Assembly: GCA_964431835.1 (NCBI GenBank)
Contig: CAYSKO010000001.1
Location: forward strand, 137,743-201,742
Direction: 5' to 3'
Length of the DNA: 64,000 bases
DNA from: an uncultured Planctomycetia bacterium
Lineage (GTDB): Bacteria > Omnitrophota > Gorgyraeia > 2-02-FULL-51-18
The first letter of the stretch is position 1, and every line of letters begins with the position of its first letter. This document shows, piece by piece, positions 59,255-64,000 of the stretch. The notes under the pieces were generated by a model, which was not told the DNA's origin, did not search any database, and saw only the letters and a list, made by a program, of their open reading frames with translations. Both the position numbers and the translations under genes were made by a program.

Positions 59255-62020
59255 ATGACCATCGCCCAATCTCGCAAAGAACGAACCGACAAAAAAGAAG
59301 ACACGCTCGCTCCGCTCAAAAAGGACGTCCGTTTCCTGACGACGCTCCTAGGCGACGTCATCCGCGAGCGCGAGGGTGACAAACTCTTCCAGAAGATCGA
59401 GTCCATCCGGAACCTCGCCAAAAACGTCCGCCGCGAGTCGACCTCCGAATGGATAGCGGAGCAGAGGCGGCTCGTGCGTTCGTTCACGCCCGAAGAGGCG
59501 TTCAAGGTCGCGCGCGCTTTCACGATCCATTTTCAGCTCGTCAACATCGCCGAGGAAATGCACCGCGTCCGCCGCCTACGCGAATACGCGAAGGATCCGT
59601 CCCGTCCCCCCGAGATGTCCCTGCGCAAGCTGTTCCAGGATTTGAAGAAGGAGGGCCTCACCGCCGCCGAGGTCCGCCAATTCTTCTCGCGCATGGAAGT
59701 CGAACTCGTCCTCACCGCGCACCCCACCGAGGCGAAACGCCGCACTGTGCTCGATCATCTGCTTCGAATCGCCGGCCAGCTGCCGCTTTTCGGGGACTCG
59801 GACCTCACGGTGCGCGAGAACGATGAGATTTGCGAGAACATCAAGGAATCGCTCGAGATCCTCTGGCAGACCGCCGAGATCCGCCAGCGCAAGGTCGAGG
59901 TGATCGACGAAGTCTCCCAGACGCTCTTTTATTTCCAGCGCACGATCCTCGCGCTTCTGCCGGACCTCCAGCGGAACGCGCGCCGGGAGTTCCGCCGCGC
60001 CTTCGGCGAGGAAGGCGATCTTCCGCCGTTCGTCGCGTTCGGCTCGTGGGTCGGGGCGGACCGCGACGGTAATCCGAACGTCACCTGCGACGTGACCCGG
60101 CAGGCCGCGGGCATGCAGCAGGAGCTGATCTTTAAGAATTACCTCTCCGCGATCGAAAGCTGCATCCTGCGTTTCAGCCAGTCGCAGGACATCGCGCCCG
60201 TCTCCAAGCGCCTGCTCGAATCGATCGAAGCCGACCAGCGGCAGATGCCCGAAGAAGCCCGCGTCCTCCGCCGTTTCGAGTCGAACGAAGTGTATCGCCG
60301 TAAATTTTCCTTCATCCACCAGAGGCTCCTGAATTCGCTGGCCAACCGTTCGTCCAAAAAGCGTCTGCCCGGCTACGCCTCAGCCGAAGATTTCCTAGCC
60401 GATCTCGAGATCGTTCGCGAGAGCCTTGCTTCCAACGGAGGAGAGCTCGCCGCGCGCGAGCTCGGCCGGCTGACGGACCAGGTCCGTTCATTCGGGTTTC
60501 ATCTGGCCAGGCTCGATTTCCGCGACCACGCCAAGAAAGTGAACAAGGCCATGGCCGAACTCTTCCCTGGAGAGAACATCGACGAGGATTTCCTCGTGAA
60601 GAAAATCCTCTCGTCCGCGCCGCTTCCGCTCGGAGCGAAGCTTTCCGCCGAGTCGAAGGATATCCTCGACCAGCTCGAGACCATGCGCGAACTGCAGGAC
60701 CGCCGCGACGCGCGCTTCGCGGACGACTACATCTTGAGCATGACCGAATCGCCGAACGATCTTTTGGCGCTCTTCTACCTCGCGGCCCGGAAGGGCCTCA
60801 TCCGCGTGTCGAAGGGGAAGGTGGTCGAAGCGCGCGTGGGCATCGTCCCGCTTTTTGAAACCATCGGCTCGCTCGGTCGCGCGCGTGGCATCATGGAAAA
60901 GCTCTACGCGATACCGGTCTACAAGTCCTACCTCAAAGCGCGCGGCAATTCGCAGGAAGTCATGCTCGGTTATTCCGACAGCTCGAAGGACGGCGGTTAT
61001 CTCTCGGCTAATTGGAAACTCTACCTCGCCCAGAAGGATCTCGCGCGTTCCGCCGAGTCGCTCGGAATCCGACTCGAACTTTTCCACGGCAAGGGCGGTT
61101 CGATCGACCGCGGCGGCGGGGAATCGCACCGCGCGATTTTGGCCCAGCCGTATTCCGCCGCCGCCGGCCGCCTCAAGATCACCGAGCAGGGAGAGGTGAT
61201 CGCCCAGAAATACGCCAATCCCGTAATCGCCGAGCGCAACATCGAGCAGCTCGTCTCGGCCGTCGCCTGGACGAATCTCGTTTCGCGGCGTGAAGTCGAG
61301 AAGAACAAAAAATTACCGGTGTGGGAGAGCCGTCTCGAGGCGCTTTCCGAGCACTCGTTCACTTTTTACCGCGAACTCGTTTTTGGCACTCCCGGCTTCC
61401 TCGAGTTCTATTACCAAGCCACCCCGATCGGAGTCATGCAGATGACGAAGATCGGTTCACGGCCCGCAACCCGCGGCGGCAAGAAAGGCTTCGAAGACCT
61501 ACGCGCGATCCCGTGGGTTTTCAGCTGGATCCAGTCACGTTACATCATCTCCGCCTGGTACGGCATGGGCCACGCGCTCGAGGAATACGTGCGCGAGCGG
61601 GGGGAGTCCGCGATGGCGGAGCTGTGCGAGATGTACGAGGAGTGGCCGTTCTTCCGCTCACTCGTCCACAACGTCCAGACGTCTCTGGCGAAAACGGATC
61701 TCTCCATCGCCGCACAGTACACGGAACTGGTCGAGGACGCGGCTCTCCGGAAAACGATCCACGGACGCATCGCTGCCGAACACAAGCGTGCGGTGGAACA
61801 GGTTTTACGCGTTTCCTCCCAAAAAGAGCTCCTGGATTTCAACCGGACCCTGAAGGATTCTATCCGTCTCCGGAATCCCTATATCGACCCCCTCCACTAC
61901 CTTCAGATGCGCTGCTTGGCCGAAGTCCGGGCCGACGGCGCCCGCCCGGAATCGCTCCTCGAAGAGACCCTCCTTCTGACCGTAAACGGTATCGCCTTTG
62001 GAATGAAAAGCACCGGCTGA
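59255..62020 (+). CDS. ppc: Phosphoenolpyruvate carboxylase
   Basis: 921 aa. VLTAHPTE and GRGGSIDRGGG signatures. Confidence 0.9.
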   Translation: MTIAQSRKERTDKKEDTLAPLKKDVRFLTTLLGDVIREREGDKLFQKIESIRNLAKNVRRESTSEWIAEQRRLVRSFTPEEAFKVARAFTIHFQLVNIAEEMHRVRRLREYAKDPSRPPEMSLRKLFQDLKKEGLTAAEVRQFFSRMEVELVLTAHPTEAKRRTVLDHLLRIAGQLPLFGDSDLTVRENDEICENIKESLEILWQTAEIRQRKVEVIDEVSQTLFYFQRTILALLPDLQRNARREFRRAFGEEGDLPPFVAFGSWVGADRDGNPNVTCDVTRQAAGMQQELIFKNYLSAIESCILRFSQSQDIAPVSKRLLESIEADQRQMPEEARVLRRFESNEVYRRKFSFIHQRLLNSLANRSSKKRLPGYASAEDFLADLEIVRESLASNGGELAARELGRLTDQVRSFGFHLARLDFRDHAKKVNKAMAELFPGENIDEDFLVKKILSSAPLPLGAKLSAESKDILDQLETMRELQDRRDARFADDYILSMTESPNDLLALFYLAARKGLIRVSKGKVVEARVGIVPLFETIGSLGRARGIMEKLYAIPVYKSYLKARGNSQEVMLGYSDSSKDGGYLSANWKLYLAQKDLARSAESLGIRLELFHGKGGSIDRGGGESHRAILAQPYSAAAGRLKITEQGEVIAQKYANPVIAERNIEQLVSAVAWTNLVSRREVEKNKKLPVWESRLEALSEHSFTFYRELVFGTPGFLEFYYQATPIGVMQMTKIGSRPATRGGKKGFEDLRAIPWVFSWIQSRYIISAWYGMGHALEEYVRERGESAMAELCEMYEEWPFFRSLVHNVQTSLAKTDLSIAAQYTELVEDAALRKTIHGRIAAEHKRAVEQVLRVSSQKELLDFNRTLKDSIRLRNPYIDPLHYLQMRCLAEVRADGARPESLLEETLLLTVNGIAFGMKSTG

Positions 62021-62107
62021 AATTGCCGATTTACGCCCGCCTTTAAGCGTTGTATATTTAGCTGCTGTCTTAAGTTAGGGGGGATAGCCACTCATCAAGG
62101 AGGCATC

Positions 62108-62722
62108 ATGAAACGTACGGCAATGATCACCATGCTCTCGCTTTTCCTCGGCGCGTCTGCGTACGCCGAAACCATCGTGACGACGGACTCCGGTTCGAGC
62201 GTCGCGTACGACCGCGTCGGTCGCGTCGACTGGGGTATCCTGGGCGGCGGCGCGTTCAACGACACGATCGACGAGGCCGGCTACGTGCAGACCAGCGTTT
62301 CCTACGGCGTCACGCCGTGGATCGCGATCGGCGTGGAAGGCGGCTGGCAGCAGGCGGACGGCGCGGCGTCTCACGAAGAAACGGGTATCGTTCAGGTCAT
62401 GGGCGACATCATCGTCCGCGTCCCTGAGCACCCGTTCCACGAAGCACTCGTTCCGTACGGCGTGCTCGGTCTCGGCGTCATCGGTGTTTACACCGAAGCG
62501 GAGCCGACTGCCACGACGCAGAACGGCGACGATGCGGACGACACCGTGTTCGGCTGGAAGCTCGGCGCCGGTTTCGACTGGTTCCTCAACCAGAACTGGG
62601 CGATCAACTTCGAAGTCGCTTATTTCGACTCCTCGGAGCTCGATCTTGCTCCGACGTCGATGGGCAACAATGCCGAAATCGACTTCTGGACGGTCGGCGG
62701 CGGTCTGAAGTGGGTTTGGTAA
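62108..62722 (+). CDS. Outer-membrane beta-barrel protein (OmpW/OmpA-like)
   Basis: Signal peptide. Alternating beta pattern. C-terminal GGGLKWVW. Confidence 0.6.
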   Translation: MKRTAMITMLSLFLGASAYAETIVTTDSGSSVAYDRVGRVDWGILGGGAFNDTIDEAGYVQTSVSYGVTPWIAIGVEGGWQQADGAASHEETGIVQVMGDIIVRVPEHPFHEALVPYGVLGLGVIGVYTEAEPTATTQNGDDADDTVFGWKLGAGFDWFLNQNWAINFEVAYFDSSELDLAPTSMGNNAEIDFWTVGGGLKWVW

Positions 62723-62737
62723 AGTAAGATTTAAAAA

Positions 62738-62776
62738 AGAAACCCCCGGAGGGAAACCTCCGGGGGTTTTTTATTT
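62738..62776. terminator. Bidirectional rho-independent terminator
   Basis: AAACCCCCGGAGG-gaaa-CCTCCGGGGGTTT flanked by T/A runs. It lies between convergent genes. Confidence 0.75.
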
Positions 62777-62785
62777 CTCCGCGCG

Positions 62786-62998
62786 TCAGCCCGGGCGCCG
62801 CCGGGGATCTTCGAGCAGGTAGCGCACTTCAGTTTCCGTCGCACCGAATTCGCGGGCCGTGGTGACGAATTCCGCGCAGTTTTCGTATCGTTCCTTCTGA
62901 AGCGCTTCCCGCAAGTACAAGAGCGCCGTAAGCCCAAGCGGGTGGCGCGTATTCCGTGCCGGGCGAGGGGAGTCGGCGTTCGGAGCCGTCTTCAACAT
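62786..62998 (-). CDS. Hypothetical small protein (70 aa)
   Basis: Minus-strand SD AAAGGAGG 8 nt upstream of the ATG. Ends at the shared terminator. Confidence 0.5.
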   Translation of the reverse strand: MLKTAPNADSPRPARNTRHPLGLTALLYLREALQKERYENCAEFVTTAREFGATETEVRYLLEDPRRRPG

Positions 62999-63035
62999 GT
63001 TCGTTCCTCCTTTTTATTCGTTTAAATATACCCCA

Positions 63036-63066
63036 ACAAAAAAACCCACTGCCTACAGGCAATGGG
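63036..63066 (-). terminator. Minus-strand intrinsic terminator/attenuator just upstream of the 62998 start
   Basis: On the minus strand: CCCATTGCC-tgtag-GGCAGTGGG + T7. Confidence 0.6.
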
Positions 63067-63094
63067 TCGTCGGAACTCCTTATGGGAACGAAAC

Positions 63095-63226
63095 CTAAAC
63101 TGCTACGTTCCCCTCCCGACCCACCGCCTTGCGCGACTTTCGCGCAATCAGAGCACAGCCCATCCACACCGGCGTTCCGGCGCGATACGCGAGTACTTCA
63201 TGATGGATCGTGAAATAGGATTTCAT
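63095..63226 (-). CDS. Candidate 43-aa leader ORF between the minus-strand promoter and the terminator
   Basis: ATG about 10 nt after the predicted TSS. Followed by hairpin GGGAACG...CGTTCCC and the terminator. Confidence 0.25.
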   Translation of the reverse strand: MKSYFTIHHEVLAYRAGTPVWMGCALIARKSRKAVGREGNVAV

Positions 63227-63240
63227 TTTTTACCTGAATT

Positions 63241-63269
63241 ATTTTATCACGCCGCGGCCGGTCGTTCAA
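63241..63269 (-). promoter_or_regulatory. Minus-strand promoter TTGAAC-17-TAAAAT
   Basis: Read on the minus strand. Canonical spacing. Confidence 0.45.
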
Positions 63270-63351
63270 GCGAGTTTTAGGACCGTCGTTTTTGCGCGTT
63301 GACTCACGGGGAACGTAACCGGACGCTGCACACGTCGTCCCGGCCGGGTGC

Positions 63352-63380
63352 TTGACAGACGCGCCCGCGCCGCTTATGCT
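63352..63380 (+). promoter_or_regulatory. Promoter TTGACA-17-TATGCT, 6 nt before the ATG at 63387 (leaderless)
   Basis: Consensus -35 and 17-nt spacer. Confidence 0.55.
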
Positions 63381-63386
63381 CGCCGA

Positions 63387-63977
63387 ATGACTCTTAAGCC
63401 GTCCGTCCGCCGACCTTTGTTTTCCGCGCTCCATCTCGTGACGCTGGGTGTCGCCGCCGTCGCCGCAGCCACGTTCGCTTTCGCACCGAAATCCCGTGCG
63501 GACCTTCCCGTGTATGGCCAGATCCCCGATTTCGCGCTCACTGGACACGATGGCGGGCCGCTCACGACCTCCTCGCTGGAAGGGAAGCCGTGGATCGGGG
63601 ATTTCATTTTCACCGGATGCCAAGGCCAATGCCTCGTGATGAACGAGCAAGTCGCGGGCCTGCGGGACGAGCTTTCCGGTGTGCGCTTCGTTTCGTTCAC
63701 CGCCGATCCGGAGCGTGATACCCCCGAAGTCCTCGCGCGTTACGCCGGGAAATACGGTGCGGACGTCGCCCGCTGGACGTTCGCGACGGGCCCGCGCGGG
63801 GAGCTCGACCGCGTCTCCGCGGCGCTCAAATTCGGACGTCTCGGGGATCCGCTCTTCCACAGCACGCGCCTCGTTCTCGTGGACGCCGCCGGCCGTGTGA
63901 GAGGGTATTACGATTCGAACGAACCTTCCGAGATCGACCGCCTCAAATCCCACGCTCGCTCGCTTGCCTCCTCCTAA
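63387..63977 (+). CDS. SCO1/SenC family thioredoxin-like copper chaperone
   Basis: TM anchor. CQGQC (CxxxC) and the downstream His region. The track start at 63348 overlaps the -35. Confidence 0.75.
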   Translation: MTLKPSVRRPLFSALHLVTLGVAAVAAATFAFAPKSRADLPVYGQIPDFALTGHDGGPLTTSSLEGKPWIGDFIFTGCQGQCLVMNEQVAGLRDELSGVRFVSFTADPERDTPEVLARYAGKYGADVARWTFATGPRGELDRVSAALKFGRLGDPLFHSTRLVLVDAAGRVRGYYDSNEPSEIDRLKSHARSLASS

Positions 63978-64000
63978 AGAAAACCCCCGTTCGTTTTTTT

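What the first reader, a model, noticed from the sequence alone, without database searches (positions are those of the whole stretch)
62786..63269. Minus-strand attenuator-like leader: promoter, 43-aa uORF, hairpins, intrinsic terminator, then a 70-aa gene
A good promoter (TTGAAC-17-TAAAAT, 63241-63269, minus strand) is followed by a 43-aa ORF (63226-63095). Next comes a 7-bp hairpin with a 15-nt loop (GGGAACG...CGTTCCC). Then a clean terminator (63036-63066) sits about 30 nt before a strong SD and the ATG of a 70-aa unknown protein (62998-62786). That gene ends at a bidirectional terminator.

A terminator placed between promoter and gene start implies conditional read-through. This could be a riboswitch, a leader-peptide attenuator or a protein-dependent antiterminator. 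I could not match the leader to a known riboswitch class.
Basis: seen in the sequence. Interest (0 to 1): 0.5.

Follow-up and report, generated by a model that had tools for sequence, protein, structure and literature searches.

The report
Conserved leader-ORF transcription attenuator in Omnitrophota
The stretch is a real gene switch: a short translated reading frame plus an RNA that folds either into a stop signal for transcription or into a competing shape that lets transcription continue. It sits in front of a small unknown protein gene and is conserved in about 70 uncultured Omnitrophota bacteria, but it is in no RNA database.

Summary

The 70-aa protein is a conserved stand-alone family, mostly in Omnitrophota. 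In 73 distinct related loci with different neighbouring genes, the gene follows the same leader.

- **Switch:** The terminator's 5' arm (B) can pair with its 3' arm (A') or with a copy of that arm about 90 nt upstream (A). Both pairings covary, which shows a terminator/antiterminator switch.
- **uORF:** 71 of 73 leaders keep an ATG ORF (median 47-48 codons) that runs through A and stops in the A-B loop, against 14% of shuffles. Its amino-acid sequence is not conserved and all three reading frames cross A.
- **Promoter:** No promoter lies between terminator and gene.
- **No aptamer:** There is no Rfam match, no conserved aptamer core and no run of regulatory codons.

Best reading: a ribosome-mediated (leader-ORF) transcription attenuator that reports how far the ribosome has progressed. 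It works most like B. subtilis bmrB. The signal and the direction of control are inferred. The protein's function is unknown.

The parts
63241..63269 (-). Sigma-70-type promoter of the leader: -35 TTGAAC at 63269-63264, 17-nt spacer, TG-extended -10 TAAAAT at 63246-63241. The -10 ends 14 nt before the uORF ATG, so the 5' UTR is only about 8 nt.
   Evidence: In relatives, 39 of 60 leaders have a promoter match of at least 9/12 within 70 nt upstream of the uORF, against 17 of 512 control pieces.
63095..63226 (-). Leader ORF (uORF): 43 codons plus TAG. It has a weak SD (AGGT). It reads through strands B0 and A and stops in the loop between A and B.
   Evidence: An equivalent ATG ORF is present in 71 of 73 distinct leaders (2 more start with GTG), against 14% of shuffles; the median length is 47-48 codons. 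Substitutions show no amino-acid constraint. The SD is weak, with a median of -3.8 kcal/mol.
63202..63210 (-). Strand B0 (CGATCCATC, uORF codons 6-9): the upstream partner of A, i.e. the anti-antiterminator (segment 1).
   Evidence: It pairs with 63125-63117 in the MFE fold. Across the family the pairing is 75% paired with covariation 0.31, against 0.09-0.16 when slid. It is energetically weak.
63129..63197 (-). Two internal hairpins between B0 and A, the second being UUGCGCGA-AAG-UCGCGCAA at 63147-63129. Their sequence is clade-specific in relatives.
   Evidence: No columns in this part of alignment A3 are invariant.
63116..63129 (-). Strand A (AGGCGGTGGGTCGG): a near-copy of the terminator's 3' arm. 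It pairs with B to form the antiterminator (segment 2).
   Evidence: The A:B duplex is -23.4 kcal/mol against -15.1 for shuffles, with 0 of 100 shuffles reaching it. Covariation is shown.
63110..63117 (-). SD-like GGGAGGGG just after A and about 19 nt before the uORF stop codon. It is conserved but its role is unexplained.
   Evidence: Present between A and the stop codon in 54 of 59 leaders. It also appears in the A4 consensus.
63084..63112 (-). It is specific to this window.
   Evidence: It is not conserved: the loop region has a median z of +0.14 in 59 leaders.
63058..63068 (-). Strand B (GACCCATTGCC): the terminator's 5' arm, shared between the terminator and the antiterminator (segment 3).
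63038..63053 (-). Strand A' (GGCAGTGGGTT, the terminator's 3' arm, segment 4) and the T-run TTTTTTT (63044-63038).
   Evidence: The terminator is 95.9% paired with 103 double-change cells. RNAalifold predicts it on its own. The covariance model R1 scores 63036-63136 at 42.7 bits, E = 3e-10.
62786..63010 (-). The regulated gene: SD GGAGG at 63010-63006, ATG at 62998, and a 70-aa protein with a disordered basic N-terminus and a three-helix core.
   Evidence: SD duplex -10.0 kcal/mol. No Pfam, NCBIfam, PADLOC or PDB relative.
62740..62769 (.). Bidirectional intrinsic terminator that ends the 70-aa gene (- strand) and the OMP beta-barrel gene (+ strand). It makes the small gene monocistronic.

Best explanation
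This is a ribosome-mediated (leader-ORF) transcription attenuator that controls a monocistronic gene for a 70-aa protein.

Transcription starts about 8 nt before a 43-codon uORF. The nascent RNA has four interacting strands:
- B0, at uORF codons 6-9.
- A, near the end of the uORF.
- B, the terminator's 5' arm.
- A', the terminator's 3' arm, followed by a U-run.

B pairs either with A' (terminator: RNA polymerase stops at 63038-63044 and the gene is off) or with A (antiterminator: read-through and the gene is on). A can also be held by B0.

Because the uORF runs through B0 and A and ends in the A-B loop, the position of the leading ribosome when B emerges decides the outcome.
- A ribosome that keeps pace and is finishing the uORF covers or abuts A, so the terminator forms.
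- A ribosome that lags or stalls in the first 30 or so codons leaves A free and keeps B0 away from it, so the antiterminator forms.
- With no ribosome at all, B0:A can favour termination.

The uORF has no run of a particular codon, so the leader most likely reports general translation progress (starvation, ribosome shortage or inhibitors) and not one amino acid.

Shown: the conserved architecture, both alternative pairings, conservation of the ORF without conservation of the peptide, and dependence of the gene on the leader promoter. Inferred: that the uORF is translated, the direction of control, and the signal.
For: - **Conserved module.** The 70-aa gene has homologues in more than 100 loci with unrelated neighbours. 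Model R1 finds the leader's 3' module on the same strand just upstream of the gene in most of the 100 loci searched (87 full-length plus-strand matches). It finds the module only once in the 64-kb window.
- **Terminator.** B:A' is 95.9% paired, with 103 double-change cells and covariation 0.49; 0 of 500 shuffles reach this. RNAalifold predicts it without guidance.
- **Antiterminator.** A:B is 84% paired, with 94-95 double-change cells and covariation 0.34-0.36, against 0.06-0.12 when slid; 0 of 500 shuffles reach this. The duplex median is -21.8 against -12.2 kcal/mol for shuffles, and 52 of 62 loci are reached by at most 1 of 100 shuffles.
- **Folding.** The full-length MFE has the terminator in 57 of 62 leaders, with A paired upstream in most. 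Truncated before A', the MFE has A:B in 42 of 62.
- **Anti-antiterminator.** B0:A is 75% paired with covariation 0.31, against 0.09-0.16 when slid.
- **uORF.** It is kept in 71 of 73 leaders against 14% of shuffles, and in 62 of 67 against 8.6%.
- **Spacing.** It is tight: median 48 codons (IQR 46-50); A's GGG ends 25 nt (IQR 21-26) before the stop; the stop ends 33 nt (IQR 31-37) before B's CCC.
- **Peptide not constrained.** Differences by codon position are 406/423/527 and the synonymous fraction is 0.22. In the same pairs the 70-aa gene gives 357/207/700 and 0.59. All three frames read through A (37/12/10).
- **Ribosome-footprint simulation.** On transcripts truncated before A', the antiterminator is lost only when the P-site is within about -4 to +7 codons of A (0-39% of leaders). 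It is present in 76-94% when the ribosome is further upstream.
- **Promoters.** One lies before the uORF in 39 of 60 leaders. None lies between terminator and gene in 0 of 62.
- **Precedents.** bmrB in PMC4191407 and the duf1127 uORF in PMC12218461.
Against: - There is no experimental or transcript evidence; every locus comes from an uncultured MAG or metagenome.
- The uORF SD is weak (median -3.8 kcal/mol against -10.0 for the main gene), and the 5' UTR is only about 8-20 nt. Translation is therefore inferred from ORF conservation alone.
- B0:A is barely more stable than chance (median -16.5 against -14.8 kcal/mol; 3 of 62 loci are reached by at most 1 of 100 shuffles).
- At equilibrium on the complete leader the terminator wins wherever the ribosome is masked. 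The model therefore needs kinetic, co-transcriptional control.
- A ribosome parked exactly on the stop codon does not cover A by footprint alone (68-78% of leaders still form the antiterminator). Termination by a fast ribosome therefore needs steric hindrance or an SD-like tether, which is speculative.
- The downstream protein gives no clue to the signal.
Confidence: 0.68

Rival explanations
1. The terminator/antiterminator switch is driven by a ligand or a protein that binds the leader RNA, possibly the 70-aa protein itself acting in autoregulation. On this reading the uORF is not the sensor.
For: The switch itself is solid. The leader is highly structured (z = -5.3). The uORF SD is weak. The 70-aa protein has a basic, disordered N-terminus that could bind RNA. 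The conserved GGAGG after A has no assigned role.
Against: No nucleotide is invariant outside A, B, A' and the start codon at which the sequences were cut (alignment A3). The 5' hairpins differ between clades. No Rfam family matches in the window or in 20 diverse loci. This reading does not explain why an ATG ORF of about 48 codons with a fixed stop position is kept in 71 of 73 leaders while its peptide drifts.
Confidence: 0.15
2. The 190-nt transcript is a gene in its own right: a trans-acting or dual-function small RNA, or an mRNA for a 43-aa micro-protein with its own terminator. On this reading it merely sits next to the 70-aa gene.
For: It has its own promoter and an efficient-looking terminator. 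The RNA is stable and structured. Terminated attenuator RNAs are known to act in trans (rnTrpL, abstracts listed).
Against: No promoter lies between terminator and gene in 0 of 62 loci, and the median spacer is only 39 nt, so the gene needs read-through. The conserved antiterminator has no purpose in a plain sRNA gene. The peptide is not under amino-acid selection. A trans role for the terminated product could exist in addition and is not excluded.
Confidence: 0.08
3. The terminator is a constitutive, leaky 'dimmer' that only sets a fixed low level of the 70-aa protein, with no conditional control.
For: Terminators inside operons can fix stoichiometry. The full-length MFE favours the terminator in 57 of 62 leaders.
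Against: A fixed dimmer needs neither a covarying competitor strand A nor a conserved uORF with constrained spacing.
Confidence: 0.05

Closest known systems
bmrB leader of the Bacillus subtilis bmrCD operon (ribosome-mediated transcription attenuation; PMC4191407)
   Same: Both have a long leader ORF: bmrB is 162 nt, and here the median is about 48 codons. Neither has a run of regulatory codons. Both carry anti-antiterminator, antiterminator and intrinsic terminator structures. The logic is the same: efficient translation gives termination, and slowed translation gives the antiterminator and read-through.
   Different: In bmrB the terminator lies inside the leader ORF. Here the uORF stops in the antiterminator loop, 33 nt before the terminator's 5' arm. 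The regulated gene is a 70-aa unknown protein, not a drug exporter. There is no sequence similarity, the phylum is different, and nothing here has been tested experimentally.
Classical amino-acid operon attenuators (trpL, hisL, leuL, thrL, pheL; Rfam leader families)
   Same: Both have a promoter-proximal leader ORF, overlapping 1:2 / 2:3 / 3:4 pairings and an intrinsic terminator before the first structural gene.
   Different: There is no run of cognate codons. The ORF is about 2-3 times longer and reads through segment 2. The downstream gene is not biosynthetic. Rfam's His, Thr and other leader models match only the downstream bidirectional terminator, below their gathering scores.
uORF-dependent attenuation of a small DUF1127 protein gene in Sinorhizobium meliloti (PMC12218461)
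   Same: [quoted passage not shown] C-rich codons early in that uORF form part of the control element; compare the CCC of B0 here.
   Different: That system is proposed to use Rho-dependent termination at a split rut site. This one uses an intrinsic terminator with a covarying antiterminator. The proteins are unrelated.
Riboswitch expression platforms (terminator/antiterminator)
   Same: Both have mutually exclusive terminator and antiterminator helices that share one strand.
   Different: There is no conserved aptamer core and no Rfam match. A conserved translated ORF overlaps the switch strands.

Membership tests
Leader-peptide (ribosome-mediated) transcription attenuators | A short ORF at the 5' end of the leader, downstream of the promoter | tested here: met
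   Window uORF at 63226-63095. Present in 71 of 73 leaders against 14% of shuffles. A promoter lies 9-30 nt upstream of the ATG.
Leader-peptide (ribosome-mediated) transcription attenuators | An intrinsic terminator between the leader ORF and the structural gene | tested here: met
Leader-peptide (ribosome-mediated) transcription attenuators | An antiterminator helix that shares a strand with the terminator | tested here: met
   A:B energy and covariation.
Leader-peptide (ribosome-mediated) transcription attenuators | An anti-antiterminator (1:2) whose 5' strand lies in the translated region | tested here: inconclusive
   B0:A is 75% paired with covariation 0.31, against 0.09-0.16 when slid, and A is paired upstream in most full-length MFE folds. 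However, the duplex energy is close to the shuffles.
Leader-peptide (ribosome-mediated) transcription attenuators | Translation of the leader ORF changes the frequency of termination | not testable with these tools
   This needs reporter or in vitro assays. Only a footprint-masking simulation was possible.
Amino-acid operon attenuators (trpL/hisL type) | A run or cluster of codons for the amino acid made by the operon | tested here: not met
   At most 3-4 (once 5) copies of one residue occur in any 8-codon window, and the residue differs from leader to leader (A, K, G, S, T).
Amino-acid operon attenuators (trpL/hisL type) | The downstream genes encode amino-acid biosynthesis enzymes | tested here: not met
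   The downstream gene is a single 70-aa protein with no Pfam or NCBIfam match.
bmrB-type antibiotic-responsive attenuator | The terminator and antiterminator lie inside the leader ORF | tested here: not met
   The uORF stop lies 33 nt (IQR 31-37) upstream of B; only A is inside the ORF.
bmrB-type antibiotic-responsive attenuator | Induction by ribosome-targeting antibiotics | not testable with these tools
   The organisms are uncultured and no expression data are available.
Metabolite riboswitch | A conserved aptamer with invariant core nucleotides upstream of the expression platform | tested here: not met
   Invariant columns of A3 lie only in A, B, A', the T-run and the ATG at which the sequences were cut. 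There is no Rfam match at gathering or E-value thresholds.
Independent sRNA gene | The neighbouring gene is transcribed from its own promoter | tested here: not met
   0 of 62 loci have a promoter match of at least 9/12 between the terminator and the gene. The median spacer is 39 nt.

The most novel reading that the evidence does not exclude
The leader is a phylum-wide 'translation speedometer'. A codon-neutral uORF of about 48 codons reports whether ribosomes keep pace with RNA polymerase. The conserved SD-like GGAGG just after strand A tethers the finishing ribosome so that it blocks the antiterminator. When ribosomes lag, the switch turns on a previously unrecognised three-helix, basic-tailed small protein that acts on the translation or transcription machinery during stress.
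Probability: 0.25. Interest if true: 0.7.

Novelty: new variant of a known kind. Interest (0 to 1): 0.55.

Why it matters
This would be the first gene-control element described for Omnitrophota, a large uncultured phylum.

It is also a clean, comparatively validated case of leader-ORF attenuation outside amino-acid biosynthesis and antibiotic resistance. About 70 independent leader sequences show covariation for two competing helices, and an ORF that is conserved only as an ORF.

It marks a family of small proteins as something the cell switches on according to translation status. The family has 320 clusters at 50% identity and no known domain. That gives a concrete handle for finding the protein's function.

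The element is missing from Rfam and could be added as a family.

Tried and rejected
- **Rfam.** I searched the region at E <= 10, the whole window at gathering thresholds, and 20 related loci. Nothing matched in the leader. The weak His_leader and trpB hits are the downstream bidirectional terminator.
- **T-box or metabolite riboswitch.** Rejected: no match and no invariant core.
Rejected: the loop region is not structured in relatives.
- **Regulatory codon runs, including a Met sensor.** Rejected. The in-frame ATGs come from the CCCATGAC and GTCATGGG pairing strands and are replaced by GTG in other clades.
- **uORF as a conserved micro-protein.** Rejected by its substitution pattern.
- **Own promoter for the 70-aa gene.** None found.
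- **Second copy in the window.** The only other model hit, 62688-62775(+), is the shared terminator.
- **Protein function.** Pfam, NCBIfam, PADLOC, PDB sequence search and PDB fold search gave nothing significant; the best Foldseek E-value was 2.8. The afdb50 fold library was unavailable.
- **Equilibrium folding with ribosome masks on the full-length leader.** It did not discriminate between states, because the terminator nearly always wins. Only the truncated, kinetic proxy was informative.
- **First plain MAFFT alignment of four leaders.** It was uninformative, as was nhmmer with the window leader.
- **Literature.** Two searches found no description of this element.

Full report
**Observation**

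- A sigma-70-type promoter, TTGAAC-17-TAAAAT, at 63269-63241 (9/12 matches, with TG before the -10). Three promoter-like sites were found in 62000-64000, where shuffles give 0.3.
- A 43-codon ATG ORF at 63226-63095.
- A 7-bp hairpin, GGGAACG/CGTTCCC, at 63112-63084.
- An 11-pair terminator stem at 63068-63043 followed by seven T.
- GGAGG at 63010-63006 and the ATG at 62998 of a 70-aa ORF that ends at 62786.
- A bidirectional terminator at 62769-62740.

The 207-nt leader folds at -89.2 kcal/mol, against -66.0 +/- 4.4 for dinucleotide shuffles (z = -5.3). No Rfam family matches it at E <= 10, and nothing in the whole window reaches a gathering score.

**The gene is real and the module is conserved**

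The 70-aa protein has homologues with invariant LTALLYLREAL..E.YE.C....A.EFGA...E...LLEDPRR.P. Scans of genome and metagenome collections gave 112 further loci, nearly all labelled Candidatus Omnitrophota or mis-binned 'Planctomycetia'.

A profile search finds 320 clusters at 50% identity. The 150 best-scoring are nearly all stand-alone proteins of about 50-130 aa. Neighbouring genes differ from locus to locus: SCO1/OMP, MscS/response regulator, DAC, T2SSE. Yet a strong intrinsic terminator lies less than 90 nt upstream of the gene in 60 of 82 distinct loci.

**A terminator/antiterminator switch**

Lining up the terminators showed three things:
- A conserved 5' arm, B, close to GCCCATGAYC.
- A conserved 3' arm, A', close to GRTCATGGGC followed by a T-run.
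- About 90 nt upstream, a copy of the 3' arm, A, followed by GGAGG.

The copy changes together with the terminator. For example, L008, L009, L024 and L047 have GGTGGGTTGTG paired with CACAACCCACC.

On an alignment of 62 leaders (A3):
- The terminator B:A' is 95.9% paired, with 103 double-change cells and covariation 0.49. None of 500 shuffles reaches this.
- The competing A:B helix is 83.8% paired, with 95 double-change cells and covariation 0.34, against 0.06-0.08 when the partner is slid. None of 500 shuffles reaches this.
- The A:B result repeats on a second alignment, A4.

RNAduplex gives A:B a median of -21.8 kcal/mol against -12.2 for shuffled upstream sequence. In 52 of 62 loci at most 1 of 100 shuffles reaches the observed value. 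The window itself gives -23.4 against -15.1. RNAalifold on its own predicts the terminator.

Full-length leaders fold with the terminator in 57 of 62 cases, with A paired to upstream sequence in most of them. Truncated before A', 42 of 62 form A:B.

A third, weaker pairing joins A to an upstream strand, B0. B0 is CCCRTGA in most leaders and CGATCCATC (63210-63202) in the window. This pairing is 75% paired with covariation 0.31, against 0.09-0.16 when slid. Its energy barely exceeds the shuffles.

**The uORF is conserved as an ORF, not as a peptide**

Leaders were defined independently by covariance model R1, built from A4 with the terminator as its structure. With that definition, 71 of 73 distinct leaders have an ATG ORF that starts upstream, reads through A and stops in the A-B loop. 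The other two have the same ORF with a GTG start. Shuffles give 14%. An earlier heuristic gave 62 of 67 against 8.6%.

The geometry is tight:
- The uORF has a median of 48 codons (IQR 46-50).
- A's GGG ends 25 nt (IQR 21-26) before the stop codon.
- The stop codon ends 33 nt (IQR 31-37) before B's CCC.

In 31 locus pairs the uORF differs about equally at the three codon positions (406/423/527), with a synonymous fraction of 0.22. The 70-aa gene in the same pairs gives 357/207/700 and 0.59.

A is read in all three frames in different leaders (37/12/10), giving VMG, GHG or RSW. No residue is clustered beyond 3-4 (once 5) copies in 8 codons, and the residue involved differs from leader to leader. 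The open frame is therefore selected, but the amino-acid sequence is not. That is the signature of a regulatory leader ORF.

**Transcription units**

A promoter match of at least 9/12 lies within 70 nt upstream of the uORF in 39 of 60 leaders, against 17 of 512 control pieces. The -10 usually ends 9-30 nt before the ATG.

Between the terminator's 5' arm and the start of the 70-aa gene, no locus (0 of 62) has such a match, and the median spacer is 39 nt. The gene therefore depends on read-through.

R1 finds the module once in the window (63036-63136, 42.7 bits). Its only other window hit is terminator-only, at the shared terminator. In most of the 100 loci searched (87 full-length plus-strand matches) it finds the module on the gene's strand just upstream of the gene.

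**Mechanism**

Shown:
- A conserved two-state switch with a possible third state.
- An ORF that overlaps strands B0 and A.
- The gene's dependence on the leader promoter.

Inferred: the position of the leading ribosome selects the fold.

In a footprint-masking simulation on transcripts truncated before A', the antiterminator is lost only when the P-site lies within about -4 to +7 codons of A (0-39% of leaders). It forms in 76-94% of leaders when the ribosome is further upstream. I conclude that a ribosome keeping pace with RNA polymerase favours termination, and that a lagging or stalled ribosome favours read-through.

This is the logic shown experimentally for bmrB (PMC4191407). It is also the logic proposed for a uORF that monitors translation efficiency upstream of a small DUF1127 gene (PMC12218461).

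Caveats:
- The uORF SD is weak (-3.8 against -10.0 kcal/mol).
- On complete leaders the terminator wins at equilibrium wherever the mask is placed, so the control must be kinetic.
- A ribosome sitting exactly on the stop codon does not cover A by footprint alone.
- The conserved SD-like GGAGG lies 3-6 nt after A and about 19 nt before the stop (54 of 59 leaders). It might tether the finishing ribosome, but this is speculation.

**What it is not**

- **Metabolite riboswitch:** unlikely. The only invariant columns lie in A, B, A', the T-run and the ATG at which the sequences were cut. The 5' hairpins are clade-specific. Rfam finds nothing in 20 diverse loci.
specific to this window.
- **Independent sRNA gene:** this does not fit the missing promoter or the conserved antiterminator.

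**The protein**

AlphaFold2 (pLDDT 80, above 90 in the core) predicts a disordered basic N-terminus and three helices at residues 20-34, 38-50 and 55-62. There is no significant fold match in the PDB (best E-value 2.8) and no Pfam, NCBIfam, PADLOC or PDB sequence relative.

Distant family members replace the LLEDPRRxP tail with basic tails ending in RRRF or RPRF. One of them (L119) has no leader. Another (L120) has a diverged version with a promoter, a 29-codon uORF, GGGAGG and a terminator. The protein's function remains unknown.

**Verdict**

This is a real and strongly conserved leader-ORF transcription attenuator. It is a new variant of a known kind: a new family, in a new phylum, in front of a new target gene. 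It has no regulatory codons, and its uORF stops inside the antiterminator loop. The signal it senses and the direction of control still need an experiment.

Noticed in passing
window 59966-60057 (+): ARAGORN calls a 'tRNA-???' with a two-base anticodon inside the PEP carboxylase ORF (59255-62020). It is almost certainly a false positive.
   Followed up: no
window 63352-63380 (+): A good divergent promoter (TTGACA-17-TATGCT, 10/12) for the SCO1/SenC gene lies back-to-back with the leader promoter. It overlaps the listed GTG start at 63348, so the true start of that gene is probably a downstream ATG (MTLKPS...).
   Followed up: no
L027 2748-2835 and L095 2634-2807: c-di-GMP-I riboswitches (RF01051, 72 and 49 bits) lie about 1.1 kb downstream of the small gene in two related loci. 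A DAC gene lies upstream in L005 and a GGDEF gene upstream in L120. This may be coincidence, or a link between the small protein's neighbourhood and second messengers.
   Followed up: no
window 63110-63117 (-); alignment A4 columns about 24-31: A conserved SD-like GGAGG lies 3-6 nt after antiterminator strand A and about 19 nt before the uORF stop codon (54 of 59 leaders). No start codon follows it. Its role is unknown: it could tether the ribosome, pair with an upstream CCUC, or do something else.
   Followed up: partly
L119 1-300; L120 1260-1640: Distant members of the protein family have basic C-terminal tails ending in RRRF or RPRF. L119 has no leader. L120 has a diverged leader: a promoter, a 29-codon uORF ending just after GGGAGG, the terminator GGACCACCG...CGGTGGTTTTTT, then about 150 nt to the gene. 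Model R1 does not detect it.
   Followed up: partly
L016, L063, L078, L104, L087, L097, L100: Two clades of the protein family gave no R1 hit and no clear terminator upstream. They are the MSPTMNPLS... clade and the clade whose proteins end in ...NILEDPRRMPV. Their leaders may be lost or strongly diverged.
   Followed up: no
uORFs of all leaders (for example L029, L106, L094): Met is 5.4 times enriched in the uORF frame compared with the other two frames. The cause is that the ATG of the pairing strands CCCATGAC and GTCATGG lies in frame (P-M-T..V-M-A). Other clades have GTG (Val) at the same places, so this reflects RNA pairing (A-U versus G-U) and not a requirement for Met codons.
   Followed up: yes
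window 62740-62769: A single hairpin with T-runs on both strands ends both the 70-aa gene (- strand) and the convergent OMP beta-barrel gene 62108-62722 (+ strand). It produces sub-threshold Rfam hits to His_leader, trpB and other terminator-containing families on both strands.
   Followed up: yes
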